Shown here: one piece after another, positions 1,075-39,373 of the stretch
How the letters are laid out: each line of letters begins with the position of its first letter
Numbering within the stretch: the first letter of the stretch is position 1
Virus record (IMG/VR): IMGVR_UViG_3300025353_000004
Span: 1-52,116 of that record
Length of the DNA: 52,116 nt
DNA from: a virus
Taxonomy: Duplodnaviria; Caudoviricetes
Reading direction: 5' to 3' (one strand)
Notes under the pieces: model-generated
Seen by the model: the letters and a program-made list of their open reading frames with translations, nothing else
Database searches by the model: none
Told to the model about the DNA's origin: nothing
Program-made: the position numbers and the translations under genes

Positions 1075-1090
1075 TTTTAAAGGAAAAACA

Positions 1091-1849: not shown

Positions 1850-1866
1850 TTTTAAATAAACTTTAA

Positions 1867-1884
1867 GGATTAGTGATGCAATCC
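1867..1884 (+). promoter_or_regulatory. RNA hairpin GGAUU-AGUGAUGC-AAUCC covering the RBS and start of the GT2 gene
   Basis: Perfect 5-bp stem; same 8-nt loop as 31092..31109 and nearly the same as 45786..45803. Confidence 0.55.
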
Positions 1885-4500: not shown

Positions 4501-4511
4501 AAAGGCTTTTT

Positions 4512-4766
4512 ATGTTCGACCAAACACTTTTTAATTATGCGTTAGCTTTATGTGGTGCTTTGGGCGGATGGGTTCTAAAAGTTATTTGGGATGCAGTTAA
4601 AGATTTACAATCGGCAGATAAGGTTTTGGTAGAAAAAGTAAACACTATTGAGATTCTTATAGCTGGAAACTATATGTCTAAATCAGATTTTGACAAAATT
4701 GCTATTGCTATTTTTGCAAAATTAGACAAAATAGAGGACAAATTGGATAAAAAGGCAGATAAATAA
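4512..4766 (+). CDS. Membrane protein with coiled coil (holin/antiholin-like)
   Basis: N-terminal hydrophobic helix and C-terminal KLDKIEDKLDKKADK; first gene of the lysis cassette. Confidence 0.55.
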   Translation: MFDQTLFNYALALCGALGGWVLKVIWDAVKDLQSADKVLVEKVNTIEILIAGNYMSKSDFDKIAIAIFAKLDKIEDKLDKKADK

Positions 4767-4933
4767 TGTTTAAAACTATTTGTGCTTTACTTCGTAAAAA
4801 ACCTGAACCAGCTATTATTCCAGTTTTTCCTGTTAAAAAAAAACCAATAGCCAAAAAAGTAGTGGCTAAAACTGCTAAAAAACCAGTAGCAGTTAAAAAA
4901 ACTATCAAAAAGCCTATTTTGAAAAAAAAATGA
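4766..4933 (+). CDS. 55-aa Lys-rich, histone-H1-like peptide (not in ORF track)
   Basis: MFKTICALLRKKPEPAIIPVFPVKKKPIAKKVVAKTAKKPVAVKKTIKKPILKKK; coupled to both neighbours by TAATG and ATGA overlaps. Confidence 0.7.
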   Translation: MFKTICALLRKKPEPAIIPVFPVKKKPIAKKVVAKTAKKPVAVKKTIKKPILKKK

Positions 4934-5115
4934 AAGCAATGCACAAATCAAGGACTATGTGGTTTTCCTTGCTTCTTGTTATATTTGGTGCTTTATTTGA
5001 TAACCTATCCTATGTGCAAAATAGTATTGATCCAAAATATTATGGCTTTATCCTTATTGGGATTGGCGTTATTGTTGCTATATTGCGCTTTGTGACTTCC
5101 AAGCCTATTGAGTAA
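4930..5115 (+). CDS. Putative holin (2 TM)
   Basis: Two hydrophobic segments, 61 aa, upstream of spanin and endolysin. Confidence 0.65.
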   Translation: MKAMHKSRTMWFSLLLVIFGALFDNLSYVQNSIDPKYYGFILIGIGVIVAILRFVTSKPIE

Positions 5116-14978: not shown

Positions 14979-17330
14979 ATGGCTGAAAAAATTATATCAC
15001 CAAACGAATTCATTGACTTTTTAGCAAAACTACCTGCTGAGGGTGAAACTCTTTTGGTGGTTAAGCAAAAACCTGTCATGTCCAATGGTGAACACGCTTT
15101 GCATGGCGACGGGACACCAAAATATACTTGGATTCCGATGTTGCCTGAACGCTACAAGCCTAATGGTTCTCATTACGTTAATACTGGCAGTTTTATTATC
15201 AATCGTTTTAAAGACGGCAAAATGTCGGCTTCTAATGCCAATTGTGAACACACTTTATTTCTGATGTTAGATGATATTGGCACTAAATCTAAAGTGCCAC
15301 CATTAGAGCCAACTTGGAAGCTGGAAACATCGCCGGGTAATCAACAATGGGGCTATGTTTTTGACTTCGATCACCAGCCTACTAAGGGTGAATTCACCGC
15401 CGCTATTAAAGCGATTGCCGCGGCGGGCTATACCGATGGCGGCGCTACTAATGCGGTGCGTAATGTCAGAGTACCCGGTTCTGTTAACTTAAAAGAAGGT
15501 AAAAATTTCTTTGAAGCAAAACTTTTAGAGTTCCATGTGGATCGTGAGTTTAATCTTGACCAAATCTGTAAAGCTTTAGGGGTAAACCCTGAGCAAGCCG
15601 ATACTGCTTTTGTTCGCCCTATCTCTTTAATAGATGATGGGGACGACGACATACTTCAATGGCTTGACGATAACAATCTCATTCTTGAAGAAGGTAATCA
15701 ATCTGGTTGGTATGGGGTAGTTTGCCCGAACTCCGCCGAGCATAGCGATGGCAATCCAATGGGGCGCTATCACCCTCTCAATCGAGCTTACTGCTGTTGG
15801 CATGAGCATTGCCAAGACTTCGGTTCTAAAGCATTTCTATCTTGGGCGGCTGATAACGGCGCGCCTAGACATGAACCCGGTGTGCGGTCTGAACTATTAT
15901 CTAGCGCGCTTTCAATAGCGCTCAAAAAGATTGAGCCTTTTAATCTATTCACAGTTACGCCCGAAGATCAGCTTGCCGAGATCGAGCGTAAAGAGTTGGG
16001 TAGGCTAGAAAAGGAAGATTGGTATGACAGATTCGCCTATGTTCAGTCCGATGATTCTTACTTCGATTTGCTTGCGCGTAACGATATTTCCCGTGGCACT
16101 TTCAATGCGCTTTATCGCCATATCTCTTGCAAGTCTATCCATAATGGGCGCAAGCTTGAAGCGGCTAATTGCTATGATGAGAATCGCGTAGCTCACAATG
16201 CTGTTGCTTTGAGAGGTTTAACCTACGCCGCCGGTGATAGCGCCTTAGTGTCTAGCATGGGTGAATTGCATGGTAATCGGTGGGTTAATGCTCGCCCTGT
16301 TATCCGTTCAAAGGGTGGCAATATTAGCCTTTGGCTTAACCATTGCCATACGCTTGTACCAAACCAAAAGGAACTCGATCACCTTTGGGATATTATGGCG
16401 TTCAAACTCCAAAACCCAAAGATTAAGATCAATCATGCCGTTCTGCACGTTGGCGATGAGGGTTGCGGCAAGGATTTAATGTGGATGCCTTTTGTATGGT
16501 CAGTCTGTGGTGCAGATTCCAAGAATCTTTGCGTAGTTGATAGTGATAAACTTCAGTCCCAGTTCACTTACCATTTAGAGTCAGAGATATTGATTCTCAA
16601 TGAATTAAAAGAACCAGATTCAGCTACCCGTAGAGCATTAGCTAACAAGCTAAAGCCTATCATTGCCGCCCCGCCAGATATGCTGGACATTAATCGTAAA
16701 GGCAAAGATCCATACAAAATGGCTAACAGGCTATTCGTATTGGCTTTTTCCAATGAGCAGATTCCTATCTCTTTATCTTCCCAAGATCGGCGCTGGTTCT
16801 GCATTAGTTCTGAAGCGCAAGCGATGGAAAAGATTAGGGTAGGCTCAGGTCTTGAGCTATACAACTGGTATAGGGCAGGGAACTTTGAACATATTGCTAG
16901 TTGGCTTTACGCCCGTGATGTATCTAAATTCAACCCCGGCTCTGCCCCCGAAATGACTGAATTTAAGATGAATCTTTTAGAGTCAGGCATGAGTAGCCTA
17001 GAGTCCACCATTGTTGAAATGATTAAATCTCGTACAGGTGACTTTGCGCGCGGTGCGATTGGTAGCCCCTTGCATCCTATCTGTGATCGTATTGCTGATT
17101 TGATGGGCATGGGGCGTAATAAAGTACCCCAAAGCGCTTTGCTTCATGCGCTTAAAGAAGCAGGTTGGATTGATTGTGGTAGGCTGGGCGCGGCAGATAC
17201 TAGCAATAAGAAGCGGGTGTTTGCGTCACCAGATGCGGTGCGTAGCTTTAGTAAATCTGAATTACGGCGTATGATTGAGCTACCACCTGAGCCAAAAGCT
17301 GTGGTGTTAGACATGAAGCGGAGCGCATGA
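14979..17330 (+). CDS. Primase-helicase (RepB-like primase, Zn finger, SF3/DUF5906-like NTPase)
   Basis: LDD, ETSPGNQQWGY, RVPGSVN; CP..H..C.H.HC; Walker A GDEGCGKD; ILNE. Confidence 0.88.
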   Translation: MAEKIISPNEFIDFLAKLPAEGETLLVVKQKPVMSNGEHALHGDGTPKYTWIPMLPERYKPNGSHYVNTGSFIINRFKDGKMSASNANCEHTLFLMLDDIGTKSKVPPLEPTWKLETSPGNQQWGYVFDFDHQPTKGEFTAAIKAIAAAGYTDGGATNAVRNVRVPGSVNLKEGKNFFEAKLLEFHVDREFNLDQICKALGVNPEQADTAFVRPISLIDDGDDDILQWLDDNNLILEEGNQSGWYGVVCPNSAEHSDGNPMGRYHPLNRAYCCWHEHCQDFGSKAFLSWAADNGAPRHEPGVRSELLSSALSIALKKIEPFNLFTVTPEDQLAEIERKELGRLEKEDWYDRFAYVQSDDSYFDLLARNDISRGTFNALYRHISCKSIHNGRKLEAANCYDENRVAHNAVALRGLTYAAGDSALVSSMGELHGNRWVNARPVIRSKGGNISLWLNHCHTLVPNQKELDHLWDIMAFKLQNPKIKINHAVLHVGDEGCGKDLMWMPFVWSVCGADSKNLCVVDSDKLQSQFTYHLESEILILNELKEPDSATRRALANKLKPIIAAPPDMLDINRKGKDPYKMANRLFVLAFSNEQIPISLSSQDRRWFCISSEAQAMEKIRVGSGLELYNWYRAGNFEHIASWLYARDVSKFNPGSAPEMTEFKMNLLESGMSSLESTIVEMIKSRTGDFARGAIGSPLHPICDRIADLMGMGRNKVPQSALLHALKEAGWIDCGRLGAADTSNKKRVFASPDAVRSFSKSELRRMIELPPEPKAVVLDMKRSA

Positions 17331-17749
17331 TGTTTTATACCTATATCCATCGTTATCAAGATACGGGGCAAGTGTTTTATGTCGGTATGAGCAAAAATAA
17401 ATCACGCATGACTAGCAAACAACGCCTCCACCAACCTCATTGGTACGCCGCTATTGAAAATAAAGAATGGTTTGCTGAAGCTGTAGCTAATTGGAACACT
17501 AAAGAAGAAGCTGAAAGCCATGAGCAATTGCTAATAGCTTGCTTTAAAGATATGAAACACCCTATCATCAATTTAACCAAAGGTGGGGCAGGGCGCACAG
17601 GCTTTAAATGGACAGCACAAGAACATGAAAAACAATTGGTAAATCAACAAGAACGCGGGCGTAAAGGCGGCTTAATATCTTCAGAAGCAAAGCGCATCAG
17701 CAGTAAACTCAATGGTAAACTAGGTGGTAGACCGAAACGCTTGGGCTAG
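17327..17749 (+). CDS. GIY-YIG-like homing endonuclease
   Basis: FYTYIH...VFYVG, E..LI and NLTKGG motifs; C-terminal NGKLGGRP. Confidence 0.75.
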   Translation: MMFYTYIHRYQDTGQVFYVGMSKNKSRMTSKQRLHQPHWYAAIENKEWFAEAVANWNTKEEAESHEQLLIACFKDMKHPIINLTKGGAGRTGFKWTAQEHEKQLVNQQERGRKGGLISSEAKRISSKLNGKLGGRPKRLG

Positions 17750-17794
17750 AATACACCCCCAAACGCTTGGGCTGAATATTTTATGGAGTTAAAT

Positions 17795-17956
17795 ATGAAC
17801 AAACCAATCAAAAACGATTCAGGCGCAATTAAATACACCAACTTATCTTCGGCTGGTAAAGCAATGGGATCAAAAGGCGGTAAATCTAACTCAGAAGCTA
17901 AAGTACGCGCCGCCAGAGAAAACGGCAAACAGGGTGGCGGGCATACCCCAAAATAA
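17795..17956 (+). CDS. 53-aa KGG/SEAK-type small basic protein (not in ORF track)
   Basis: GGAG RBS; MNKPIKNDSGAIKYTNLSSAGKAMGSKGGKSNSEAKVRAARENGKQGGGHTPK. Confidence 0.65.
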   Translation: MNKPIKNDSGAIKYTNLSSAGKAMGSKGGKSNSEAKVRAARENGKQGGGHTPK

Positions 17957-17967
17957 TATTCCTCTTA

Positions 17968-18036
17968 GGGGCAAAAGCGGATGCTGACCAGTTAGCTGAA
18001 ATGCAAAGGCAGACGTAGCGAGTAGCCCCGCCTTTT
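17968..18036 (+). ncRNA. Candidate structured RNA or complex terminator
   Basis: GGGGC...GCCCC closing stem, inner CUG/CAG pairing, AGUA internal loop, and a downstream T-tract. Confidence 0.35.
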
Positions 18037-18052
18037 TGTTTCATGTGAAACA
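18037..18052. promoter_or_regulatory. parS: parS-like centromere site (host ParB)
   Basis: TGTTTCATGTGAAACA, one mismatch to the chromosomal parS consensus TGTTTCACGTGAAACA. Confidence 0.8.
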
Positions 18053-18080
18053 TTTTTTAAGTCAAAAACACGAATTTAAC

Positions 18081-18095
18081 TGAGAATTGTTCTCA
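18081..18095. promoter_or_regulatory. Fur-box-like 7-1-7 palindrome
   Basis: TGAGAAT-T-GTTCTCA versus TGAGAAT-N-ATTCTCA. Confidence 0.6.
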
Positions 18096-18111
18096 TTTAG
18101 CCGTTTTTCTT

Positions 18112-18122
18112 GTTTTACATAA
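18112..18122 (-). promoter_or_regulatory. XerD-arm-like half site
   Basis: Minus strand TTATGTAAAAC versus the XerD arm TTATGTTAAAT; no good XerC arm. Confidence 0.4.
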
Positions 18123-18150
18123 TACTTTTTTCATTCGGAAAACCCTTATA

Positions 18151-18163
18151 AATCAAGGGCTTA
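18151..18163 (+). promoter_or_regulatory. IHF consensus site
   Basis: AATCAA-GGGC-TTA matches WATCAA-N4-TTR, with AT-rich DNA upstream. Confidence 0.55.
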
Positions 18164-18443
18164 CGGCATTTTTCTAATGCTATTTATACGCAATTTTTTA
18201 ATGAGCGAGCGCGGTCGCATTTGCGCGGGCGCTAGAATAGCCCCGCCGCCGGTTTGCCAATAGAAAAGGGCGCAATATTAGGGCGGCATTAAGCCGCGCC
18301 AATAGAGCGCCCGCAAAATACGGCATTAAATAGCGCGGGCGATATTCTCGCAAATAATCCGCGCCCCTTTAGAGCGCTCAATACTTGCGACAATAGCCCG
18401 CTAAGGGCGCGGCAATGCGCCGCCGCCCCTAAGCTATTGAGAG

Positions 18444-18469
18444 AAAAGAAAAAGCCGCCATAAGGCGGC
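18444..18469 (-). terminator. Intrinsic terminator of the leftward early operon
   Basis: GCCGCC-UUAU-GGCGGC followed by UUUUUCUUUU on the minus strand. Confidence 0.8.
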
Positions 18470-18486
18470 ATTGTTTAATTGTTTAC

Positions 18487-19245
18487 TTAATAGCGCCCTT
18501 CTACACTTAACCAAAAATCCTCTTTTAGCGCTTCGCGGCGCTCGCGGGCGCTGATAATTTCGGCGCGATATTCGCGCAATTTATCGGTTAACGCGTCGCA
18601 AATTGCGCCCGCTAAATCAATGCCCGCCCGCCGTTGCGCTTTAATAGCCACAATGAGAGCGCGCGCCATTTTGCGGGCTTCGCTAATTTGCTCGGCTAAA
18701 TCATCGCGAATTTGCTCGGCTTGAAATTGCGCGTCGGCTTCGCGCCCTTGCTCGGCTTCGCGCTCGGCTATGCTATCAGCGCGGCGGGCGGCATCATATA
18801 TAGCCCCTTGATTTTCTAAATTTTCGCCGTCATTCGGGGCAAATTGCCCTTGTGAAAAGTAGATTAGGGCTATATCGCTTTCACTATAAGCAATAGCGGG
18901 GCAAATAAAAACGCCGCGCCGCCCCGCTTTAATTTTGACAATATAGGGTTTAACTATTTCGCGCTGAAAGCTATCGGCATAATAGCCGGTATATTGAAAG
19001 CGGCGCGGGCTTATATCTTCAATTAGCGCGGCATTATACCCCGTGAGATCATACGCGCTTAAATCGCCGCTTTTATTGTAAAAATTGGCGCTATCATACG
19101 CGATATAGCCCCGCCGTTTATATTTCACTTGATGATTAAGCGCCGCCGCGTAAGCGCCCGCCGGATTATGCACCGCCCATTTTTCAGCTTGTTTTTTTAC
19201 GCTCGCAAGCCGCGCCGTTAATTGATAGCTTATAGAATTGCTCAT
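18487..19245 (-). CDS. Hypothetical early protein with C-terminal coiled coil
   Basis: 252-aa ORF, GAGG RBS, ends just before the terminator. Confidence 0.75.
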   Translation of the reverse strand: MSNSISYQLTARLASVKKQAEKWAVHNPAGAYAAALNHQVKYKRRGYIAYDSANFYNKSGDLSAYDLTGYNAALIEDISPRRFQYTGYYADSFQREIVKPYIVKIKAGRRGVFICPAIAYSESDIALIYFSQGQFAPNDGENLENQGAIYDAARRADSIAEREAEQGREADAQFQAEQIRDDLAEQISEARKMARALIVAIKAQRRAGIDLAGAICDALTDKLREYRAEIISARERREALKEDFWLSVEGRY

Positions 19246-19273
19246 TTTTTAGCCTCTATTCTAAAAACGGGCA

Positions 19274-19328
19274 AAATTACCCGCCATTAGCCCCGCGCTT
19301 AATGCTTAGGGCTAATAGCTGATAATTT
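19274..19328 (-). other. Intergenic 19-bp RNA hairpin (RNase III-site-like)
   Basis: AAAUUAUC-A-GCUAUUAGCCC...GGGCUAAUGGC-G-GGUAAUUU; G-U pairs form only on the minus strand. Confidence 0.5.
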
Positions 19329-19555
19329 TAGGCTTCAATATTTACTATAATTTTTTCACGCCCTTGCATGACGTATAGCGAGCCAATATTAGAATAAATA
19401 CGGCAATAAACCCGCCGCCATTTTTCAGCGTGGAAAATCTTATATTGTGTAGGAATTTTTGAGCCGTAACCCGAAGCCGTATAATTTAAGCCCATTTTTT
19501 GCCATTCTAGCGGCTCGCGTTTAACTTGCGCGCCCGCAAAATATAGGGCGCTCAT
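19328..19555 (-). CDS. Hypothetical early protein
   Basis: YTASGYGSKIPT...WRRVYC..YSN motif; ATGA coupling. Confidence 0.7.
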   Translation of the reverse strand: MSALYFAGAQVKREPLEWQKMGLNYTASGYGSKIPTQYKIFHAEKWRRVYCRIYSNIGSLYVMQGREKIIVNIEA

Positions 19556-19710
19556 TCTAAATTCTCGCTTTCAATTTCGCGTATTTTAAAATATTCGATT
19601 ATTTCGCCATTTTCTAATTGCTCGGCTATTGCATCATATATCCAATTATTTTTTAAAATATAGCCGTTATCATCTAGCGCAATTTTTAACTTAATCTCAT
19701 AATTTTTCAT
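19552..19710 (-). CDS. Hypothetical 52-aa acidic protein (not in ORF track)
   Basis: MKNYEIKLKIALDD...ESENLE; ATGA overlaps at both ends. Confidence 0.6.
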   Translation of the reverse strand: MKNYEIKLKIALDDNGYILKNNWIYDAIAEQLENGEIIEYFKIREIESENLE

Positions 19711-19976
19711 TCTAATAACCCCTTAGCTATCATAATTTTTTGATCGAATTCTTTTAGCTCATAATTTTCTAATTGAATTAGCATAAATTCGGGCGGCGTT
19801 GATGCTTCGCGCTCATTTTCGCCGCGCCGTAAGCCGTCGGCTATTAGCTCGGCATATTCGGTCAGTTTTTCTAATGCTTCGCGGCTTTCTAAAAAAGCCC
19901 CTAAAATGGCGGCTTGCTTAATATCGCCGCTATTGTGCGCGGCTTTTTCTAATTCTGTTAAATGGATAATATTCAT
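19707..19976 (-). CDS. Hypothetical early protein
   Basis: AGGGG RBS; ATGA coupling. Confidence 0.65.
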   Translation of the reverse strand: MNIIHLTELEKAAHNSGDIKQAAILGAFLESREALEKLTEYAELIADGLRRGENEREASTPPEFMLIQLENYELKEFDQKIMIAKGLLE

Positions 19977-20152
19977 TTTTCGCCCCTTAAATTTTGGGCT
20001 TCAATCTCGCGGATAATCTCTTGCGCTTCGGTTATCTCTTCCCGATCACTCCAATATTGCTCACCGCTCGGCTCTTGATCGTCTAAATAATAATCGGCAA
20101 AATCGGATAATCGGCATAAAGTATTGAATTGCTTTTTTGTGATTTTTATCAT
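19973..20152 (-). CDS. Hypothetical 59-aa acidic protein (not in ORF track)
   Basis: MIKITKKQFNTLCRLSDFADYYLDDQEPSGEQYWSDREEITEAQEIIREIEAQNLRGEK; fills the operon gap exactly. Confidence 0.6.
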   Translation of the reverse strand: MIKITKKQFNTLCRLSDFADYYLDDQEPSGEQYWSDREEITEAQEIIREIEAQNLRGEK

Positions 20153-20153
20153 T

Positions 20154-20435
20154 TTATTTAATCCCCTTCATTGTAGAATTGAGCGCTTCGCATAAATCCG
20201 CAAGGTTATAAATAGATCCGAAAATAATCCCGCCGCCAAATTGCTTATTGTGAAATTTTCGCCCGCCTAATTTGCGCGCCCTTGCAAGCGCTAAATTATA
20301 TTTTCTAGTGATAAAATCGCCCGAATAATCGGCATTTTCCGCCGGTGTATTGAGCGCTAGAAAGTGAATACAATAGCGCGGATTACCATTACTATCATTA
20401 TTCATTCTTGAAAAATCGGATTGTGAGATTGTCAT
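20154..20435 (-). CDS. Hypothetical early protein
   Basis: NDSNGNPRY...GGRKFHNKQFGGGI motif; operon packing. Confidence 0.7.
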   Translation of the reverse strand: MTISQSDFSRMNNDSNGNPRYCIHFLALNTPAENADYSGDFITRKYNLALARARKLGGRKFHNKQFGGGIIFGSIYNLADLCEALNSTMKGIK

Positions 20436-20437
20436 TT

Positions 20438-20626
20438 TTAAGCCCTTTCCAAATATATAGCCATTAAATTATTCGCGCATTTTTCGCATATTGCACAATA
20501 GCCGCGCGCTGTCATTTCATCTAAAATTATCGCTTCGCTATCATTTTCGGGGTTATCAATATCCCAAAATAGATCGGTTACCCTCTCAATCGCGCCGCAA
20601 GAGTCACAATTATTTAAATCGCTCAT
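20438..20626 (-). CDS. Small CxxC...CxxCxxC zinc-binding protein
   Basis: CDSC and CAICEKC; operon packing. Confidence 0.6.
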   Translation of the reverse strand: MSDLNNCDSCGAIERVTDLFWDIDNPENDSEAIILDEMTARGYCAICEKCANNLMAIYLERA

Positions 20627-20628
20627 TT

Positions 20629-21522
20629 TTAAACCCCTTCAATTAGTTTTAATTCTTGCGCCATTTTTTCAATTTGATCCCATGCGATAACGTGACAGCC
20701 GACGATCAAATTTTCCCCGTCAAAACTATTAAAGCGATACGCGCCCAAATTGATATTGTGTAAACCGGCTTCAAGTTTGCCGCCGTTGCGTTTTGTGCGC
20801 GCTAATAAAGGGTAAATTTTGAGCGCATCGCTAACGGGTATTTTCGCGCCGCGCGTTGTTTCTATTTGCTCGCCCTTTATTCTTAATAGCGTATTGCTAA
20901 ATTGAAAGCCGTTAGTATTTACGCTTTCACCGGTTAGCCATAAAGCGAGCCGCTCGGCGCTTTCAAGCGCGGCAATTCTATTGTTTTCGGCTTGTTTAAT
21001 AGCTCTCTTAGCGTCGCGCAATTTTGCCGCTTCACTTACATAAGCGCGGGCGGCTTTTTCGGCGTCGTTGTCTTTTATCCATTGTGGCGGCGGCGTTAGT
21101 GTAGCTTCGCAATAACTAAAAGCGGCGGCGTTATTCTCAAATAATTCACTTGCTAAATTGCCGCGTGTTATCTTACGGGTATTTTTATTAAAATCAGCGC
21201 GCAAGCGCTCGGCTCTATTTGCCCATATAGCAAGATTATGCGACGACGGGCGGCTCGGATCGTCGCAATATATTACTTGATAGCTATCAGGAATAGCGGC
21301 GCGGATAATGCCCTTATGTTTGCCCGTTGATGATGAGTAGCCGCGCGAAGTGAATAAAACTATATTGCCGTATTCGGGCGCGAAGCGCGCAACAGGAAAA
21401 TGCCGCCCATAACTATAGATTGTTTGCCCTTCAAATTCGATATTGCCCGCGCGCCCTTCATTTTGCGATTGAGAAGCCCATATATGGGAGGCTTCATTGT
21501 GGCTAGAAAATACCTTTTTCAT
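20629..21522 (-). CDS. Hypothetical early protein (297 aa)
   Basis: Long ORF with IYSYGRHFP and GCHVI motifs; AAGGGG RBS. Confidence 0.8.
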   Translation of the reverse strand: MKKVFSSHNEASHIWASQSQNEGRAGNIEFEGQTIYSYGRHFPVARFAPEYGNIVLFTSRGYSSSTGKHKGIIRAAIPDSYQVIYCDDPSRPSSHNLAIWANRAERLRADFNKNTRKITRGNLASELFENNAAAFSYCEATLTPPPQWIKDNDAEKAARAYVSEAAKLRDAKRAIKQAENNRIAALESAERLALWLTGESVNTNGFQFSNTLLRIKGEQIETTRGAKIPVSDALKIYPLLARTKRNGGKLEAGLHNINLGAYRFNSFDGENLIVGCHVIAWDQIEKMAQELKLIEGV

Positions 21523-21689
21523 AAAAACCCCTTAGCGTAAAAATAAACTGTTAAAACAAGGGCGCTTATAACGCCGCCCAAAATGCAAGCGCCGATAATT
21601 TCAAGCGCTGATACGTCATTTTTTTGGTTAATCCTATCGGCTTCGGCTTGTGCTTCGGCGTAAGATTTATACAGTTTTTGCTTTTCCAT
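21519..21689 (-). CDS. First early gene, small membrane protein
   Basis: C-terminal TM helix; directly downstream of a sigma70 promoter. Confidence 0.6.
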   Translation of the reverse strand: MEKQKLYKSYAEAQAEADRINQKNDVSALEIIGACILGGVISALVLTVYFYAKGFL

Positions 21690-21748
21690 TTTGCCCGCCC
21701 TTATCATTTAATTGTCTAAATTGTCATACGTTTTTAAGCGTATGAATA

Positions 21749-21778
21749 ATTATAAGCTGAATTATTTTTACTTGTAAA
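21749..21778 (-). promoter_or_regulatory. Sigma70-type early promoter
   Basis: Minus strand TTTACA-18 nt-TATAAT. Confidence 0.7.
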
Positions 21779-21980
21779 GCATTTTGTTGCATAAAAGCTA
21801 AATTATTTTCTAGGTGTTTACCCTTAGTTTTTATGGTCAAATTGTCTTTTTTTTTGCGGGGATTGTTGCGATATTGTCAAAATGGCGGGCGGGCTTAGGG
21901 CTATATAAGATAAGCTAAAAGCGGCTTTTATGGTTAAGATTGTCATTATAGGTATGCTATGTTTTAAGCAAGTTTTTATA

Positions 21981-22000
21981 TACTGTATAGATATACAGTA
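21981..22000. promoter_or_regulatory. LexA (SOS) box
   Basis: TACTGTATAGATATACAGTA, 19/20 match to TACTG(TA)5CAGTA. Confidence 0.8.
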
Positions 22001-22080
22001 GTATTTTGGCGTGTAGTTGTAGCGCTCAATATATCCGCCGGTGACAATGGACAATATGACAATGGAAAAATGCTGTTAGC

Positions 22081-22227
22081 TTAGGGATAAATGCTAATGA
22101 ATAAGGGCTTAATTCTTAATGCTAAATGCTAATGAATAAGGGCTTAATTCTTAATTCTTAATTCTTAATTCTTAATTCTTAATTCTTAATTCTTAATGCT
22201 AAATGCTAAATGCTAAATGCTAAGGGC
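22081..22227. repeat. Tandem heptamer array (21 units)
   Basis: Strict 7-nt register of TAAATGC, TAATGAA, TAAGGGC, TTAATGC and TTAATTC (seven in a row at 22144..22192). Confidence 0.9.
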
Positions 22228-22328
22228 AAAATCTACCCGCGCCCCGCTATGCTTTAATTTTTCAGCCCTTAGCCGCAAGCATTCAGCTATTAGCTAACGG
22301 CTAACGGGTGACAATCTAGCCCATTCTT

Positions 22329-22356
22329 ATTTGACATAACGTACGTTATACGCAAG
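22329..22356 (-). promoter_or_regulatory. dif: dif-like XerC/XerD site
   Basis: Minus strand CTTGCGTATAA-CGTACG-TTATGTCAAAT; 11-6-11 layout versus E. coli GGTGCGCATAA-TGTATA-TTATGTTAAAT. Confidence 0.75.
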
Positions 22357-22628
22357 CCGTCAAAAAATAGCCGTTTGCTGAATGCTTTTTATAGGGGGTT
22401 TTTTTGCCTATCAAAAAAGAAAAAGGGGGTCATTAATATCTAGTTACCCGATCAGCGGACTTTTTAGCTTTCAGAACACCGCAAAAAGTTCTTTTGCAAA
22501 ACGCAAAAAAATTTTAGAAAAATTAAAACTAAGTTAGTAAACACTAACATATTATGTCAAACAAGCCACTTGCAATCTATAAGGCTTATGCTAATATCGG
22601 TTTATCAATCAACTATAGGGGAGTAGTT

Positions 22629-23036
22629 ATGGCGCGTTTTACACCAGACCCAGTATTCTATTCAGTTGACCATAAGACCGATAAAATTACCGCTACGCAA
22701 GAAGATTTAGACAAAATCTACGATGCCGCTTACCGCGGGCTAACAGGTGACGCATTAGCTCTTTATTCAGGGTTTATGCCTATAGACTTTAATCGCTTAT
22801 GCCAATTTGATTCAAAAGCGGCGGATATGGTATTAACTGCCAGAGCCGCAAATCAAGCAGAACTTAGTGGCGCGCTAATGACTAACGCCTTAAATGGGGA
22901 TACTAAAGCGCAACATATTGCCTTGACACATTTGCATGGCTGGAAGCCCGCTAGACCAGAAGGTGAAAGCTCCAATGAAATCCGTATCATTGTAGAAAAC
23001 GCAGAAGCTCACATAAAACCGGGCGTAGATGGTTGA
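22629..23036 (+). CDS. terS: Putative terminase small subunit
   Basis: Immediately upstream of terL and overlapping it; helical protein with NGDTKAQ..L...HGW motif; GGGGAG RBS. Confidence 0.7.
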   Translation: MARFTPDPVFYSVDHKTDKITATQEDLDKIYDAAYRGLTGDALALYSGFMPIDFNRLCQFDSKAADMVLTARAANQAELSGALMTNALNGDTKAQHIALTHLHGWKPARPEGESSNEIRIIVENAEAHIKPGVDG

Positions 23037-24318
23037 TATTCGTAGGGTCAAATTACCAAAGTTACACGCTGGGCAAGTTGATCTGTACAAAGGGCAAACG
23101 CGACTCAACGTAGTACGCGCGGGCAGACGTTTTGGTAAATCTATCTTTGCTACATGGTTAGCCGCTAAAACAGCAATTTCAGGAAAACAAGTAGGTATCT
23201 TTGCCCCAGAGCATAAGCAATTAGCTGAAATTTGGGATGCTCTACGGGATACGCTTGATCCTGTGATTAGAAGCGCTAATCGTAATGATGCAACCATCAA
23301 GCTAATTGGTGGTGGCAAGATTGACTTTTGGACAATTTTGGATAATGAGTTAGCAGGGCGCGGGCGATCTTATGATTTAACGCTCATTGATGAGGCGGCG
23401 TTTACCAAAAGCCCCCAAATGAAAAATGACATTTGGTACAAGTCAATTAAACCAACAATGCTAACAACCCAAGGTATTACTTGGGTTTTTTCTACGCCTA
23501 ACGGGGTTGATCCTGATAATTTCTTTTGGGCGGCGTGTAATGAAACCGATTTAGGATTTAAAGAGTTTCATGCCCCAAGTTTGGCTAACCCTTATGTGCC
23601 ACCAGCAGAAATTGAATCTGAAAGATTACGCCAACATGAGTCTGTGTTCCGGCAGGAGTATCTTGCTGAGTTTATTGATTGGCGGTCTATCAGCCTGTTA
23701 GCTGTAGACAAACTGCTAGTAAATGAATTGCCTGTTCCTTATCCTACTCAAGTAGAAACTGTCTATGCGGTGATTGATTCTGCCATGAAAGCAGGTCAAA
23801 ACTTCGATGGAACAGCGGTGGTGTACTTTGCTCTTAACTCGCAAAGCGATCAGCCGTTAACAGTCTTAGATTGGGATATTGTGTCAATTGACGCCGCTAT
23901 GTTAGAGCATTGGATTCCATCTGTGTTCACAAGGCTAGAAGAATTAGCAAAGCAGACAAAAGCTATCTATGGCATTACTTCTACTTTTATTGAAGGAAAA
24001 GGGTCAGGTATTGTGCTATTGCAACAAGGTCAAAATAGGGGTTGGAACGTCCGTGAGATTGAACCTAAGTTCGTGCAAATTGGAAAAGATGATCGCGCTA
24101 TGAGTATTTCAGGTTACCATTTCAATGAAAAGGTCAAAATTAGCGAACACGCCTATTACAAAACAGTCCCCTTCAAAGGTGCAACTCGAAATCACTTGAT
24201 TACAGAAATGGCGGGATTTAGACTAGGAGATCCAGACATTAATAAAAAATCCAATGATTTATTAGATTGTTATGTCTACGGAGTTGCGGTAGGCTGTGGG
24301 AATAAACTGGGGTTCTAG
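23029..24318 (+). CDS. terL: Terminase large subunit
   Basis: AGRRFGKS Walker A, IDEAA Walker B, STPNG, FRQEYLAEF and nuclease DLLD motifs. Confidence 0.95.
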   Translation: MVDIRRVKLPKLHAGQVDLYKGQTRLNVVRAGRRFGKSIFATWLAAKTAISGKQVGIFAPEHKQLAEIWDALRDTLDPVIRSANRNDATIKLIGGGKIDFWTILDNELAGRGRSYDLTLIDEAAFTKSPQMKNDIWYKSIKPTMLTTQGITWVFSTPNGVDPDNFFWAACNETDLGFKEFHAPSLANPYVPPAEIESERLRQHESVFRQEYLAEFIDWRSISLLAVDKLLVNELPVPYPTQVETVYAVIDSAMKAGQNFDGTAVVYFALNSQSDQPLTVLDWDIVSIDAAMLEHWIPSVFTRLEELAKQTKAIYGITSTFIEGKGSGIVLLQQGQNRGWNVREIEPKFVQIGKDDRAMSISGYHFNEKVKISEHAYYKTVPFKGATRNHLITEMAGFRLGDPDINKKSNDLLDCYVYGVAVGCGNKLGF

Positions 24319-26575: not shown

Positions 26576-27136
26576 ATGGCTTTTTTTACATACGCCCATC
26601 AAACTGCCGATACAGGCAAAATTTTCTATATAGGTAAAGGATCTCGAAAAGATCGACAAATCGCTAAAACAGGACGTAATAAACATTGGCATAACATTGT
26701 AAAAAAACACGGATTTATAGCTGAAATATTAGCTTATTGGAATACTGAACAAGAAGCTTTTGACCACGAAAAACTTTTAATAACGAGTTTTCGAGATATG
26801 GGATATAGCTTGGCAAATTATACTAACGGAGGAGAAGGGTCTTCGGGAATTAAAATTACAGAAGAAACGCGAATAAAATTACGAAACCGCCCGTATAAAA
26901 AAGAAACTTACGAAAAAGTAGCAAAAGCTTTATGTAAAAAAGTAATCTGTGTAGAATTAGGCAAAGAATTTAATAGCGGTCTAGATGCGGTAAAATGGCT
27001 AAAACAAAATGGACACCCTAAAGCAACATCAGGGGCAATTTCTGTCGGAATACGAAAAGATAAAGTTCGTTATGGGTATAGGTGGAAATTTAGCCAAAAA
27101 GAAGTAAATAGCGTTAAAATCGAGAAAATTTACTAG
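26576..27136 (+). CDS. GIY-YIG-like homing endonuclease (NUMOD1-like C-terminus)
   Basis: FTYAH...FYIGKG, NYTNGGEG, KKVIC...EFNS and YGYRWKF motifs. Confidence 0.8.
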   Translation: MAFFTYAHQTADTGKIFYIGKGSRKDRQIAKTGRNKHWHNIVKKHGFIAEILAYWNTEQEAFDHEKLLITSFRDMGYSLANYTNGGEGSSGIKITEETRIKLRNRPYKKETYEKVAKALCKKVICVELGKEFNSGLDAVKWLKQNGHPKATSGAISVGIRKDKVRYGYRWKFSQKEVNSVKIEKIY

Positions 27137-33778: not shown

Positions 33779-34093
33779 ATGGCAATCGTTACCAACCCAA
33801 CAGTTCAAAATGGTGCTTTATTAACAGCCCAAGGACAAAAAACATTTTTTAATATTACCGCCGCAACTTTAGTAAAAGCTGGCGCTGGTCGTGTAGCAAA
33901 AGTTAGCGTTGTTGTAGCTGGTTCTGGCGCAGGATCAATTAACGATGCAGCTACTATCGGAACTGCCGCCGCCGCAAATGAAATTGCTGTAATTCCTGCA
34001 ACTGTAGGCATTATTAATATTGATTTTCCAGTTTCTAACGGAATTGTTTTAACTCCCGGTACTGGTCAAACTTTAGCAATCAGCTACATCTAA
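33779..34093 (+). CDS. Small beta-rich virion protein
   Basis: AAGGAG RBS; Ala/Gly/Thr/Val-rich. Confidence 0.55.
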   Translation: MAIVTNPTVQNGALLTAQGQKTFFNITAATLVKAGAGRVAKVSVVVAGSGAGSINDAATIGTAAAANEIAVIPATVGIINIDFPVSNGIVLTPGTGQTLAISYI

Positions 34094-34099
34094 TTAGTC

Positions 34100-34660
34100 A
34101 TGTTGCGTTTTTACACCTATTCTCATCAAACTGCCGATACTGGAAAAATTTTCTATATTGGTAAAGGTGCTGAAGGTAATACAACTCAACGCTATAAATC
34201 TGCTGGTCATCGTAATGCCCATTGGCACAATATTGTCAATAGACATGGATTTAATGCAGAAATATTAGCGTACTGGGATACCGAGGAAGAAGCGCACGAC
34301 CATGAAAGACTGCTAATTTCTTGCTTTAAAGATATGGGCTATAAGTTAGCCAATAAAACTGATGGTGGAGAAGGAACAGTCGGACATAAACAATCCAATG
34401 AATTGAAAGCATGGCGTTCCCAAAAAATGATGGGAAATCAACTTGCTAAAGGTAAACAACCTAGATTAGGCATAAAACATAGCGAAGCAACTAAGCAAAA
34501 AATTTCTTTATCCAAAAAAGGTACAGTTTCTTGGGCTAAAGGAATTAAAATGAGCGAGGAAACTAAGGCTAAAATTTCAGCGTCTAAAAAAGGTACACCT
34601 TCAATTTTTAAAGGCGTTCCGAATTCTGAAAGGAAACAAAATGAAGGACACATTAAATGA
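34100..34660 (+). CDS. GIY-YIG-like homing endonuclease with NUMOD3 repeats
   Basis: FYTYSH...FYIGKG, NKTDGGEG, HSEATKQKIS and MSEETKAKIS motifs. Confidence 0.85.
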   Translation: MLRFYTYSHQTADTGKIFYIGKGAEGNTTQRYKSAGHRNAHWHNIVNRHGFNAEILAYWDTEEEAHDHERLLISCFKDMGYKLANKTDGGEGTVGHKQSNELKAWRSQKMMGNQLAKGKQPRLGIKHSEATKQKISLSKKGTVSWAKGIKMSEETKAKISASKKGTPSIFKGVPNSERKQNEGHIK

Positions 34661-35979: not shown

Positions 35980-35990
35980 GGGGAAAATAA

Positions 35991-36431: not shown

Positions 36432-36450
36432 TCTAATGAAGGAATAAAAA

Positions 36451-37157: not shown

Positions 37158-37173
37158 TTACTAGGAAGATAAC

Positions 37174-39371: not shown

Positions 39372-39373
39372 TT

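What the first reader, a model, noticed from the sequence alone, without database searches (positions are those of the whole stretch)
18037..22356. Putative first-injected island bracketed by host-chromosome protein binding sites (parS, Fur, Xer, IHF, LexA, dif)
Seen: a leftward operon of unrecognisable genes with its own sigma70 promoter and terminator, in DNA purged of specific tetramers. The non-coding flanks on both sides hold near-consensus sites for five unrelated host systems, and the right flank abuts terS. No ParB, Xer, integrase or repressor gene is recognisable in the genome. Established: pac/termini usually lie near terS, last-packaged DNA is generally ejected first, and T5 ends its first-step-transfer DNA with a repeat-rich injection-stop signal. 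Inference A: the leading DNA recruits abundant host proteins as a shield or roadblock against exonucleases and translocating restriction enzymes, or as an entry checkpoint. Inference B: the sites form a cis-only kit for integrase-free episomal maintenance (ParB segregation, XerCD resolution, LexA/Fur sensing). I know of no named system combining these.
Basis: partly seen in the sequence, partly recalled or inferred. Interest (0 to 1): 0.92.

Follow-up and report, generated by a model that had tools for sequence, protein, structure and literature searches.

The report
Phage early island with host sites
A 4.4-kb early-gene block of an uncultured freshwater phage is kept free of several short DNA words and sits beside a convincing LexA operator and a XerCD (dif-type) site. 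The claimed Fur, IHF and lone Xer-arm matches are at chance level, so a restriction-evading early region is plausible and a host-protein shield is not supported.

Summary
The window is one whole uncultured freshwater phage record of about 50.5 kb. The leftward operon, its promoter and its terminator are real.

Of the claimed host sites, three beat chance:
- a parS-like 16-mer with 1 mismatch
- a LexA box with 1 mismatch
- a full dif-type 11-6-11 site

The Fur, IHF and lone XerD-arm matches occur at chance frequency.

The tetramer purge is the strongest result. GTAC, GAAC/GTTC, CCAG/CTGG and CTGC/GCAG are almost absent from about 18.0-22.5 kb but common elsewhere. The purge survives composition correction and recurs in 23 of 25 related contigs.

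The dif-type site is found in 16 of 20 relatives. Its arms are letter-identical to arms found in bacterial contigs, one of them clearly chromosomal. Its central hexamer takes 8 forms, none the usual chromosomal one, and there is one site per genome.

The LexA box lies at the turning point of an inverted phage iteron array but is patchy (8 of 18 relatives). The parS-like site is confined to the nearest kin.

Best reading: a T5-like pre-early region that avoids restriction words, next to the phage's control or origin region, with a self-recombining Xer site near the packaging genes. Termini could not be mapped. The shield idea is unsupported.

The parts
17960..18036 (+). Conserved structured, terminator-like element ending in a T-run, after the small ORF 17783-17956. 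Its outer parts are conserved and its middle is variable in relatives.
   Evidence: sequences of 8 relatives printed side by side. No Rfam family matched.
18037..18052 (.). parS-like 16-mer, 15 of 16 to the recalled consensus, with the mismatch at the central position.
   Evidence: Unique at <=3 mismatches. 1 of 300 shuffles gives any hit at <=1 mismatch. Present in 3 of 7 TerL-fetched relatives that reach the place (L003, L004, L014). L005 and L010 hold a different palindrome there.
18081..18095 (.).
   Evidence: Its match to the Fur models is at chance level. The palindrome itself recurs in L003, L004 and L005, and L010 has a closer Fur-like 14-mer at that place.
18113..18193 (+). Split copy of the two arm motifs of the right-flank site: TTTTACATAA at 18113 and TTATACGCAA at 18184.
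   Evidence: The exact 10-mer TTATACGCAA occurs only twice in the window, at 18184 and 22346, both on +. The left copy is present in 9 of 12 relatives scanned.
18333..18402 (.). Conserved GC-rich imperfect palindrome or hairpin with an invariant stretch that contains the iteron core GACAAT.
   Evidence: Alignments of 8 sequences and consensus folds on both strands. On the - strand there are 33 predicted pairs, 8 with compensatory changes.
18454..18469 (-). Terminator hairpin of the leftward operon.
   Evidence: Conserved in relatives.
18487..21707 (-). Nine-gene early operon:
- 252 aa (phrog_8188)
- 75 aa (phrog_3436)
- 52 aa
- 89 aa
- 59 aa
- 93 aa (Pfam Phage_TreK)
- 62 aa
- 297 aa (phrog_7247; part of the wider family carries DUF8033)
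- 62 aa, which reads to me as a tail-anchored membrane protein
   Evidence: Gene content varies among relatives. The 297-aa protein folds at pLDDT 96 with no PDB match.
17988..22644 (.). Compositional island:
- 0 CCAG/CTGG and near-absence of GTAC, GAAC/GTTC and CTGC/GCAG
- CpG odds 1.75 against 0.75 elsewhere
- AC/GT odds 0.43 against 0.87 elsewhere
- no 3-bp W/S periodicity
   Evidence: Relatives.
21749..21778 (-). Sigma70-like early promoter, TTTACA-18-TATAAT.
   Evidence: 11 of 12, the best match of the region. Promoter-like matches as a class are not enriched (8 found, 12.8 expected).
21711..22315 (.). Phage iteron array. The ATTGTC core lies at 21711, 21720, 21841, 21873 and 21939 on +, and at 22043, 22050, 22058 and 22310 on -. 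The family consensus is about GGTCAAATTGTCA.
   Evidence: 9 cores in 861 bp (10.5 per kb against 0.73 per kb genome-wide), and their orientation flips at the LexA box. 54 sites in 9 related intergenic regions.
21981..22000 (.). LexA (SOS) box of the CTGT-N8-ACAG type, 19 of 20 to the recalled consensus.
   Evidence: Perfect 20 of 20 in L003, L015, L016, L017 and L020. 8 of 18 TerL-fetched contigs that reach the place have it at <=2 mismatches, and 0 of 13 pattern-fetched contigs do.
22073..22232 (+). Hypervariable 7-bp tandem arrays (TTCTTAA and ATGCTAA units).
   Evidence: Relatives carry other 7-mers there, such as GCTAACA, GCTAGTT and GCTGAAT. Logan contigs break here.
22329..22356 (-). dif-type site. 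On the + strand it reads ATTTGACATAA (XerD-type arm), CGTACG (centre), TTATACGCAAG (XerC-type arm). An iteron lies 8-9 nt to its left.
22554..24318 (+). Presumed terS (22554-23036, by position only) and terL (23029-24318).
   Evidence: terL matches phrog_2 at 2.9e-27. The terS candidate has no family match.

Best explanation
The stretch from about 18.0 to 22.5 kb is the phage's early accessory-gene operon, read by host polymerase, together with the phage's central control region.

(1) The island DNA is under continuing selection to lack four short words: GTAC, GAAC/GTTC, CCAG/CTGG and CTGC/GCAG. The rest of the genome tolerates these words. The whole genome additionally lacks GGCC and GGNCC and nearly lacks CCWGG and GCWGC. 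The most economical reading is two-tier restriction avoidance. Some sites must be absent everywhere. Others need be absent only from DNA that is exposed before early anti-defence proteins are made. That makes the island a pre-early, first-exposed region in the sense of T5 first-step-transfer DNA. This step is inferred: the entry order is not shown.

(2) The 850-bp right flank is a phage-specific switch or origin. It holds inverted iterons around an AT-rich core, with an early promoter on one side and the packaging genes on the other. In several lineages the core has become a LexA operator, which would tie early transcription or origin firing to the host SOS state.

(3) The 28-bp element before terS is a genuine XerC/XerD-type site. 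Its centre drifts freely and never equals the usual chromosomal centre, and each genome has one copy. It therefore most likely recombines with a second copy of itself. That copy could be in terminally redundant DNA after injection (cyclisation, as Cre-lox does for P1, recalled) or in replicative multimers. Integration at the host dif is less likely.

(4) The parS-like site is a lineage-specific palindrome of unproven meaning. The Fur, IHF and lone Xer-arm matches are chance-level.
For: PURGE
- Island counts against expectation from the rest of the genome: 0 vs 35.7, 0 vs 23.1 and 1 vs 30.6.
- It is symmetric on both strands. It shifts codon choice, and Thr, Val and Pro fall to less than half their frequency in other genes of the genome.
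- It holds against the island's own first- and second-order composition, pooled over 5 lineages and 16.8 kb: GTAC 1 vs 12.7, GAAC 3 vs 54, CCAG 3 vs 49, CTGC 5 vs 101.
- In 23 of 25 related contigs the four words have at most about 0.31 of their density in the terL-portal stretch of the same contig.
- Genome-wide: GGCC 0 (78 expected), GGNCC 0, CCWGG 2 (47), GCWGC 4 (47).

PRECEDENT
- T5-like phages are hit by type I and II R-M only if sites lie in the first-step-transfer DNA (PMC10644984, passages).

EARLY CHARACTER
- Sigma70-like promoter.
- A Phage_TreK domain at 1.1e-17.
- The 297-aa protein has homologues inside annotated terminal repeats of Caulobacter phages, two places per record.

ITERONS AND LEXA BOX
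-.
- A primase-helicase of the prim-pol/VirE kind is encoded at 14979-17330.

XER SITE
- Present in 16 of 20 TerL-fetched relatives at -687..-756 from terL.
- 8 different centres in the family.
- One site per genome in 3 of 3 complete relatives.
- The same arms with the usual centre occur in 7 metagenome contigs of 43-70% GC. One is plainly chromosomal, with TctC, thiolase, TatD and holB.
- The same arms occur in 2 unrelated tailed-phage contigs.
- No recombinase is encoded.
Against: - No read-level data: all 24 runs listed are kept as Logan contigs, so the termini, the entry order and terminal redundancy are untested.
- Island depth is not doubled (X1 about 22 against 23.6 and 29.7; X6 about 15 against 16.4 and 15.8), so it is not a T5-like long terminal repeat.
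- The purge is part of a wider dinucleotide shift (CpG and GpC up, AC/GT and CA/TG down), which could have another cause.
- GCGC and CGCG are enriched, not avoided.
- 2 of 25 relatives (L012, L023) lack the purge.
- The LexA box is absent from most relatives, and no clear promoter overlaps it.
- The Xer-type site contains TGACATAAY, which also reads as an extended -10, with an iteron where a -35 would be. Conservation extends left of the arm.
- Xer recombination normally needs FtsK or accessory factors, and none is identified here.
- The 7 bacterial matches were found by searching with the phage's own arms. They show that such dif sites exist, not that the host has one.
Confidence: 0.45

Rival explanations
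1. The 28-mer is not a Xer site but the late promoter. It would be an extended -10 (TGACATAAY) without a -35, activated by the iteron-binding protein, with a conserved initial transcribed sequence. Under this rival the island's odd composition reflects mosaic ancestry, not entry order.
For: - TG-n-CATAAT/C is present in all family versions.
- An iteron sits at a fixed 8-9 nt to the left.
- Conservation continues left of the arm and stops exactly after TTATACGCAA.
- The left flank repeats both motifs 61 nt apart, which a Xer site does not explain.
- Composition varies by module across the genome, with CpG odds of 0.3-0.5 in the tail genes.
Against: - Both arms at exactly 6-bp spacing are identical to arms of bacterial dif-type sites in 7 contigs of very different GC.
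- The same arms occur in two unrelated phage contigs, one of 60% GC. This points to a conserved host factor, not a lineage's own promoter.
- Mosaic ancestry does not explain why the same four words stay absent while the island has diverged to 65-75% identity.
Confidence: 0.17
2. The sites would be a cis-only kit for a recombinase-free, repressor-free carrier or plasmid state: LexA as the switch, XerCD for multimer resolution and host ParB for segregation.
For: - The LexA and Xer sites look genuine.
- No integrase, resolvase, ParA, ParB, HTH_3 or S24 gene is found.
- The closest named TerL and portal relatives are temperate. Chronis is called temperate in PMC7163006 (passages read), and one is a Rac-named phage record.
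- GIL01 is a precedent for host LexA holding an extrachromosomal prophage without plasmid modules (abstracts seen).
Against: - parS occurs in only 3 of 7 relatives that reach the place, and other palindromes replace it.
- The LexA box is in 8 of 18 and 0 of 13 relatives.
- The genome has a full lytic-type replication set: DNA polymerase, primase-helicase, helicase and exonuclease.
- No copy was found in 185,579 species genomes apart from one 47% TerL relative.
Confidence: 0.13
3. An IMEX-type lifestyle: the phage integrates at the host dif through XerCD, as CTXphi, gokushoviruses and Jorvik-like phages do.
For: - A full dif-type site with no recombinase gene encoded.
- Integrase-less phages with dif-like attP are known (PMC10589892, passages).
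- A LexA box fits an SOS-inducible prophage.
Against: - 8 different centres, none equal to the usual chromosomal hexamer, and the centre differs even between phages with near-identical TerL proteins.
- No integrated copy in the genome scan.
- No phage-host junction among the Logan contigs. To my eye, the one loose end at 22355 resembles phage variants seen in relatives.
Confidence: 0.1
4. One reading: the leading DNA recruits abundant host proteins (ParB, Fur, IHF, Xer, LexA) as a shield, roadblock or entry checkpoint.
For: Three sites beat chance and lie in the two flanks. The left flank is rich in conserved palindromes.
Against: - The Fur, IHF and lone Xer-arm matches are at chance frequency.
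- The sites are not conserved as a set.
- One site of each kind is unlikely to shield 4 kb of DNA.
- The flanks are mainly phage iterons and tandem arrays.
Confidence: 0.04

Closest known systems
T5/BF23 first-step-transfer (pre-early) region
   Same: It is a block of small host-takeover-type genes read by host polymerase. The DNA must lack defence recognition sites that the rest of the genome can carry (PMC10644984, passages). The border is rich in repeats and palindromes.
   Different: The phage here is about 50 kb, with no detected T5-like genes. The island is not a duplicated terminal repeat by depth. Two-step entry is not shown. The avoided words are 4-mers within a global dinucleotide shift.
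P1 Cre-lox near pac (recalled, not read here)
   Same: It is a site-specific recombination site placed close to the packaging start, so that terminally redundant DNA could be cyclised and multimers resolved. The partner is another copy of the same site, so the spacer is free to differ from any host site.
   Different: There is no phage recombinase here, so the enzyme would be host XerCD. The pac site, the packaging direction and terminal redundancy are unknown.
IMEX elements (CTXphi, VGJphi, TLC; gokushoviruses; Jorvik-like phages)
   Same: They are integrase-less viruses that carry a dif-like site for host XerCD (PMC10589892, passages; PMC8026635, passages on CTXphi).
   Different: Those named in the passages I read (CTXphi, Jorvik-like phages) are not tailed, and to my recollection the known cases are filamentous, micro- or membrane-containing viruses. 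Two full-text searches found no tailed phage. Here the centres vary and no integrated copy was found.
Plasmid multimer-resolution sites (ColE1 cer, pSC101 psi; Acinetobacter pdif; recalled)
   Same: They are XerC/XerD arms with a non-chromosomal centre, acting between copies on the same replicon. An adjacent accessory-protein site is a possible parallel to the iteron.
   Different: Accessory sequences flank the XerC side in cer and psi. Here the conserved neighbour flanks the XerD-type arm. The replicon is a lytic-type phage.
GIL01 and CTXphi control by host LexA
   Same: A host LexA operator lies in the phage's early control region, with no CI-type repressor of the phage's own (GIL01 abstracts seen; CTXphi recalled).
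   Different: The box here is found only in some lineages, and no overlap with a defined promoter is seen.
P4-type origin (iterons bound by a primase-helicase; recalled)
   Same: Inverted short iterons lie around an AT-rich core, and a prim-pol/VirE-type primase-helicase is encoded nearby.
   Different: Binding is untested. The same iterons also sit over the early leader and beside the late region, which would equally fit a transcription switch.

Membership tests
dif / XerC-XerD recombination site | 11-bp arm, 6-bp centre, 11-bp arm, with partly palindromic inner arm ends | tested here: met
   22329-22356. The same layout is seen in 24 distinct versions.
dif / XerC-XerD recombination site | Arms like those of chromosomal dif sites | tested here: met
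   4 of 22 mismatches to the recalled E. coli arms. The arms are letter-identical to those in 7 metagenome contigs that carry the usual centre, and L060 has a chromosomal gene context.
dif / XerC-XerD recombination site | Bound and recombined by XerC/XerD | not testable with these tools
   Needs EMSA or an in vivo recombination assay. The host is unknown.
IMEX (integration at host dif) | Centre (at least on the exchanging side) matches the host dif; integrated copies are flanked by dif-like sites | tested here: not met
   8 centres in the family, none the usual hexamer. The genome-contig scan with TerL gave only one 47% relative. No junction in the Logan contigs. The host dif itself is unknown, so this is not final.
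LexA (SOS) operator, CTGT-N8-ACAG type | 20-bp palindrome close to consensus | tested here: met
   19 of 20 in the window, 0 of 300 shuffles. 20 of 20 in L003, L015-L017 and L020.
LexA (SOS) operator, CTGT-N8-ACAG type | Conserved in relatives and overlapping a promoter | tested here: inconclusive
   8 of 18 and 0 of 13 relatives. The nearest scored promoter is about 200 bp away.
parS (chromosomal ParB site) | 16-bp palindrome | tested here: inconclusive
   15 of 16, with the mismatch at the central position so the palindrome is broken. 1 of 300 shuffles.
parS (chromosomal ParB site) | Conservation, or a cognate ParB | tested here: not met
   3 of 7 relatives, all nearest kin. Other palindromes stand at that place. 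No ParB_N domain is encoded.
Fur box | Match to the 19-mer or 7-1-7 model beyond chance | tested here: not met
   Observed 3 vs 3.5 and 20 vs 12.9. The palindrome at 18081-18095 is nevertheless conserved in 3 relatives.
IHF site | Core match beyond chance | tested here: not met
   6 observed vs 5.1 expected.
T5-type first-step-transfer region | Lacks defence recognition words that the rest of the genome carries | tested here: met
T5-type first-step-transfer region | Lies in a long direct terminal repeat at the leading end | tested here: not met
   Unitig depth over the island is not higher than over the flanks in X1 and X6. The leading end itself could not be mapped.
T5-type first-step-transfer region | Enters first, with an injection stop | not testable with these tools
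   No raw reads of virion DNA and no infection data.
Iteron origin of the P4 kind | Clustered inverted iterons around an AT-rich core, plus a primase-helicase gene | tested here: met
   Binding and origin activity are not testable here.

The most novel reading that the evidence does not exclude
A tailed, recombinase-less phage uses host XerCD on a private dif-type site placed next to its packaging start. The site's centre is free to drift because it only ever meets its own copy. It would be used to cyclise incoming terminally redundant DNA and/or to resolve multimers. The neighbouring 4.4-kb early operon would be a staged-entry, pre-early region kept free of a second tier of restriction words, with SOS (LexA) input at the origin or switch. 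Together these would be a T5-like entry strategy and a Cre-lox-like function, both built from host factors, in an unrelated 50-kb freshwater phage family.
Probability: 0.3. Interest if true: 0.85.

Novelty: new variant of a known kind. Interest (0 to 1): 0.68.

Why it matters
If the reading holds, three things follow.

First, region-specific word avoidance could be used to read from sequence alone which part of an uncultured phage genome is exposed first. It could also show which host defences are neutralised late and which never. That would be a computable marker for entry order and for the restriction repertoire of unknown hosts.

Second, Xer exploitation would extend from small integrative viruses to a tailed phage. 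The function might be different (self-recombination), and the freely varying centre is a direct, testable prediction of it.

Third, a LexA operator at the centre of an iteron origin or switch would be a simple way for a phage without its own repressor to sense host damage.

If the reading fails, the finding still documents a sharply bounded, conserved compositional island that no simple model explains.

Tried and rejected
TERMINI FROM READS
- The look-up of sequencing runs gave 24 runs, all kept as Logan contigs.
- Laying 4 of the 24 (X1, X6, X12, X15) showed only contig breaks at the 7-bp arrays (22117-22195) and strain variants to the right of the dif-type site. There were no starts or ends.
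- The loose ends at 22145-22193 are unrelated low-complexity DNA.
- I considered the loose end at 22355 in X6 as a possible host junction. I rejected it because, to my eye, its letters resemble the phage variants of L009 and L011.

LONG TERMINAL REPEAT
- Rejected for these samples by depth. The caveat is that intracellular DNA would not show doubling.

PROPHAGE SEARCH
- The TerL scan of genome contigs gave one 47% relative in a MAG.

NEAR-IDENTICAL PHAGES
- None in the phage collection. Protein searches gave only distant named relatives.

RNA
- No Rfam match at the gathering score (best below it: P26 at 20.6 bits, E 0.63) and no tRNA.

FUNCTION OF THE 297-AA PROTEIN
- The Atlas gave unnamed clusters.
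- The PDB profile search gave nothing below E 0.3.
- The fold search of the PDB had a best E of 0.73.
- BFVD gave only uncharacterised or DUF8033 proteins.
- The Atlas gave nothing for the 252-aa protein.

CHI-LIKE ORIENTED WORDS
- GCTCGGC has 9 of its 10 copies in the island, all on one strand.
- Read on the coding strand it is GCC-GAG-C, and the one case I translated by hand gives Ala-Glu-Gln, so I take it as a codon effect. I did not pursue it further.

HELICAL PERIODICITY
- A 10.9-bp W/S peak (12.8 against 4-8 in other segments) is marginal after allowing for the number of frequencies tested.

SECOND XER SITE ON THE LEFT FLANK
- Only split arm motifs are present there, not a site.

HOST IDENTITY
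- Not obtained.
- The LexA box type and, from recall, the TctC-rich context of L060 hint at Betaproteobacteria. That is a hint only.

PAPERS
- Two searches for tailed phages using XerCD found none.
- The supplements of the papers I read were not opened and might hold dif tables.

Full report
WHAT THE WINDOW IS

The window is a whole IMG/VR virus record of 52,116 bases, classed linear and 100% complete. Its first ~1.9 kb and last ~1.6 kb are diverged copies (81-92% identity) of one region. The contig therefore runs once round a genome of about 50.46 kb and its ends are not physical ends.

The gene content is that of a tailed phage:
- family-A-type DNA polymerase, primase-helicase, helicase and exonuclease
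- several HNH endonucleases
- endolysin
- terL and portal

There is no near-identical phage in the phage collection. The nearest named TerL and portal relatives are 40-50% identical. One of them, Chronis, is called temperate in PMC7163006 (passages read).

All 24 runs listed by the run search, 23 of which hold the stretch or part of it, are freshwater metagenomes.

THE OBSERVATION

Nine leftward ORFs fill 18487-21707. The best sigma70-like match of the region (TTTACA-18-TATAAT, 11 of 12) lies at 21778..21749 on the minus strand. A hairpin with a T-run lies at 18469..18454.

Promoter-like matches as a class are not enriched: 8 were found against 12.8 expected.

I scanned the whole window with consensus motifs recalled from memory and compared the counts with 300 dinucleotide-preserving shuffles. 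Three sites stand out:
- A parS-like 16-mer at 18037-18052, 1 mismatch, unique. A hit of that quality appeared in 1 of 300 shuffles.
- A LexA box at 21981-22000, 1 mismatch, unique. 0 of 300 shuffles.
- A full dif-type site at 22329-22356, 4 of 22 arm mismatches, unique. 7 of 300 shuffles.

The other claimed sites are not better than chance:

| Motif | Observed | Expected |
|---|---|---|
| Fur 19-mer | 3 | 3.5 |
| Fur 7-1-7 | 20 | 12.9 |
| IHF core | 6 | 5.1 |
| Lone XerD arm | 62 | 54.5 |

Six-frame searches found no match at E<=1 to tyrosine or serine recombinase, ParB_N, ParA-like AAA_31, HTH_3 or S24 peptidase families.

THE PURGE IS THE STRONGEST FEATURE

Against the rest of the genome, the stretch 18037-22356 shows the following:

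| Word | Observed | Expected | Gap |
|---|---|---|---|
| CCAG/CTGG | 0 | 35.7 | 17988-22644 |
| CTGC/GCAG | 0 | 23.1 | 18009-22837 |
| GAAC/GTTC | 1 | 30.6 | 18089-22474 |

This sits inside a wider dinucleotide shift:
- CpG odds 1.75 against 0.75
- GpC odds 2.22 against 1.40
- AC/GT odds 0.43 against 0.87

The island is the clear extreme of a genome-wide profile.

The depletion is the same on both strands. It reaches into the proteins: Gln is 98% CAA, Gly is mostly GGC/GGG, and Thr, Val and Pro fall to less than half their frequency in other genes of the genome. It is therefore a constraint on the DNA, not on the RNA.

I tested the words against the islands' own first- and second-order composition, pooled over five lineages (16.8 kb). 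Four words remain strongly avoided:
- GTAC: 1 observed against 12.7 and 14.0 expected
- GAAC/GTTC: 3 against 54 and 45
- CCAG/CTGG: 3 against 49 and 18
- CTGC/GCAG: 5 against 101 and 38

In the rest of the genome, three of these words are at or above their expectation. CTGC/GCAG is moderately under-represented there too (216 against 311 and 289).

GCGC and CGCG are at expectation within the island and are therefore very frequent there.

Across 25 related contigs with at least 0.8 kb of island, 23 carry the four words at no more than about 0.31 of their density in the terL-portal stretch of the same contig. L012 and L023 do not.

The islands are only 65-75% identical between clades. Their continued lack of these words therefore needs ongoing selection.

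Separately, the whole genome avoids other words:

| Word | Observed | Expected |
|---|---|---|
| GGCC | 0 | 78 |
| GGNCC | 0 | 78 |
| CCWGG | 2 | 47 |
| GCWGC | 4 | 47 |

The 66%-TerL clade does carry GGCC in its island. This fits a different host restriction set.

So there are two tiers of avoidance. One covers the whole genome and one covers the island only.

The T5 family gives the precedent. Type I and II restriction acts on T5-like phages only when sites lie in the first-step-transfer DNA (PMC10644984, passages read). By that logic the island is the DNA that is exposed before anti-defence functions act.

Two gene-level hints agree with this:
- ORF 20154-20435 is a Pfam Phage_TreK domain, a terminal-repeat-encoded protein of Staphylococcus phage K (1.1e-17).
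- The 297-aa protein has homologues inside annotated terminal repeats of Caulobacter phages, two places per record. In several other phage records its homologue lies within a few kb of an end.

The 297-aa protein belongs to a very large family, with 5,821 cluster representatives at E<=0.001. It folds with pLDDT 96 and has no PDB match.

WHAT THIS DOES NOT SHOW

Entry order and termini are untested. Only assembled Logan contigs were available, and they break at the 7-bp arrays.

Unitig depth over the island is not doubled:
- X1: about 22 over the island, against 23.6 and 29.7 over the flanks
- X6: about 15 over the island, against 16.4 and 15.8 over the flanks

The island is therefore not a long terminal repeat in these samples. 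The global dinucleotide shift itself remains unexplained.

THE RIGHT FLANK

The 850-bp gap between the early operon and the packaging genes has a conserved architecture in relatives.

(a) A phage iteron with core ATTGTC:
- 9 copies in 861 bp (10.5 per kb, against 0.73 per kb genome-wide).
- Five copies on one strand lie to the left of the LexA box.
- Four copies on the other strand lie to its right.
- 54 such sites in nine related regions give a consensus of about GGTCAAATTGTCA.
- One iteron sits between the early promoter and the first start codon. Another sits 8-9 nt left of the dif-type site.

(b) An AT-rich core. In some lineages this core is a LexA box:
- 19 of 20 in the window, L002 and L014.
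- 20 of 20 in L003 and in the 66% clade (L015-L017, L020).
- 18 of 20 in L012.
- It is absent from the other 10 of 18 TerL-fetched contigs that reach the place.
- It is absent from all 13 pattern-fetched contigs.

(c) 7-bp tandem arrays, whose unit differs between relatives.

(d) The dif-type site.

With a prim-pol/VirE-type primase-helicase encoded nearby, the array looks like an iteron origin and/or an early-late switch. The LexA box is genuine-looking but optional.

THE DIF-TYPE SITE

It is present at -687 to -756 from terL in 16 of 20 TerL-fetched relatives. It is absent or degenerate in L004, L012, L021 and L022.

An exact-arm pattern found 28 stretches in IMG/VR:
- 26 are this family, at this place.
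- 2 are unrelated tailed-phage contigs: L039, with a serine recombinase and a terS-like gene, and L052, with 60% GC and a TerL.

The family shows 8 different central hexamers. The centre differs even between the window and L002/L014, whose TerL proteins are 99.5-100% identical to the window's.

Each of 3 complete relatives has exactly one site at <=3 mismatches.

The same arms with the usual chromosomal centre occur letter for letter in 7 metagenome contigs of 43-70% GC. L060 is plainly chromosomal, with TctC, beta-oxidation genes, TatD and holB. I found these by searching with the phage's own arms. They prove that such dif sites exist in bacteria, not that the host carries one.

Both arms at the right spacing recur in unrelated phages of very different GC. 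On that basis I rate a real XerC/XerD site at about two in three.

The main rival is a promoter. The XerD-type arm reads TGACATAAY, an extended -10, and an iteron sits where a -35 would be. Conservation runs on to the left and stops sharply after TTATACGCAA.

The freely drifting centre, the single copy per genome and the lack of any integrated copy argue against integration at the host dif. They fit recombination with another copy of the same site.

Placement beside the packaging genes recalls loxP near pac in P1 (recalled, not read). There, Cre cyclises terminally redundant DNA and resolves dimers.

Two full-text searches found Xer use by filamentous, micro- and membrane-containing phages but no tailed phage (PMC10589892 and PMC8026635, passages read).

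THE LEFT FLANK

The parS-like 16-mer directly follows a conserved terminator-like element. It occurs only in the nearest kin (L003, L004, L014). L005 and L010 carry a different palindrome at that place.

The 'Fur' palindrome is conserved in L003-L005, and L010 has a closer Fur-like 14-mer there. Its match to the Fur models is nevertheless at chance level.

One result was unexpected. The exact 10-mer of the XerC-type arm occurs only twice in the window, at 18184 and 22346, on the same strand. Each copy lies downstream of a TTT[G/T]ACATAA motif: at 18113, leaving 61 nt between the two motifs, and at 22330, leaving 6 nt.

The left copy is present in 9 of 12 relatives scanned. So the island really is bracketed by a repeated motif pair. 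The left pair is not a Xer site, and I cannot explain it.

A conserved GC-rich imperfect palindrome at 18333-18402 contains an invariant iteron core.

VERDICT

The best composite reading has confidence 0.45. It has three parts:
- a pre-early region that avoids restriction words
- an iteron switch or origin with optional LexA input
- a self-recombining Xer site next to the packaging genes

EARLIER NOTES

They are not independent support.

Noticed in passing
window 1-1919 and 50508-52116: The two contig ends are diverged copies (81-92%) of the same fibre-tip region, with different copy numbers of a 12-nt repeat. Two strain alleles are joined in one contig, and the true genome is about 50.46 kb.
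   Followed up: partly
whole window: Genome-wide avoidance of palindromic words:
- GGCC 0 (78 expected)
- GGNCC 0 (78 expected)
- GGWCC 0
- CCWGG 2
- GCWGC 4
- CTGCAG 0
- CAGCTG 0
The 66%-TerL clade (L017) does carry GGCC in its island.
   Followed up: yes
window 1-5000 and 34000-52116 against 9000-33000: The CpG odds ratio is module-specific. It is 0.3-0.6 in the tail, fibre and glycosyltransferase genes, about 1.0 in the replication and head genes, and 1.7-1.9 in the island.
   Followed up: no
window 17327-17749, 26576-27136, 34100-34660: Three paralogous ORFs share 60-85% identical DNA blocks; the first has a homing-endonuclease-like PHROG hit. The copy at 17.3 kb is missing from the relative whose record has end repeats (G003/L020), whose contig ends about 50 nt outside the flanking primase match.
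   Followed up: partly
L039:5467-5492 and L052:266-291: Two unrelated tailed-phage contigs carry the same XerC- and XerD-type arms with other centres. One lies beside a serine recombinase gene and the other lies 4 kb upstream of a TerL. dif-type sites may be more widespread in tailed phages.
   Followed up: partly
window 20629-21522 (-): The 297-aa island protein has these properties:
- a confident model (pLDDT 96) with no PDB fold match
- invariant His, Cys and Arg positions (H13, H69, R214, C276, H277)
- a family of 5,821 cluster representatives
- homologues in the terminal repeats of Caulobacter phages
   Followed up: partly
window 18333-18402: A conserved imperfect palindrome or long hairpin downstream of the island terminator. 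It has an invariant stretch that holds the iteron core, and a few compensatory changes.
   Followed up: partly
window 18010-22470: The usual 3-bp periodicity of A/T against G/C is absent from the island although it is coding (peak 3.9 against 9-76 in other segments). S-runs and W-runs are longer (mean 2.7 and 3.7 against 1.75 and 2.7).
   Followed up: no
window 22340-22395: Strain variants in other runs replace the DNA starting at the border of the XerD-type arm, or directly after the XerC-type arm. One variant has 106 letters in place of 56. The site is a boundary of variation.
   Followed up: partly
L012:1-2750: The 80%-TerL relative keeps the iterons and a LexA box (18 of 20). It has no dif-type site and no purge, and its leftward operon encodes an amidoligase-like protein and a weak glutamine-amidotransferase-like protein (below the Pfam cut-off).
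   Followed up: partly
   Followed up: no
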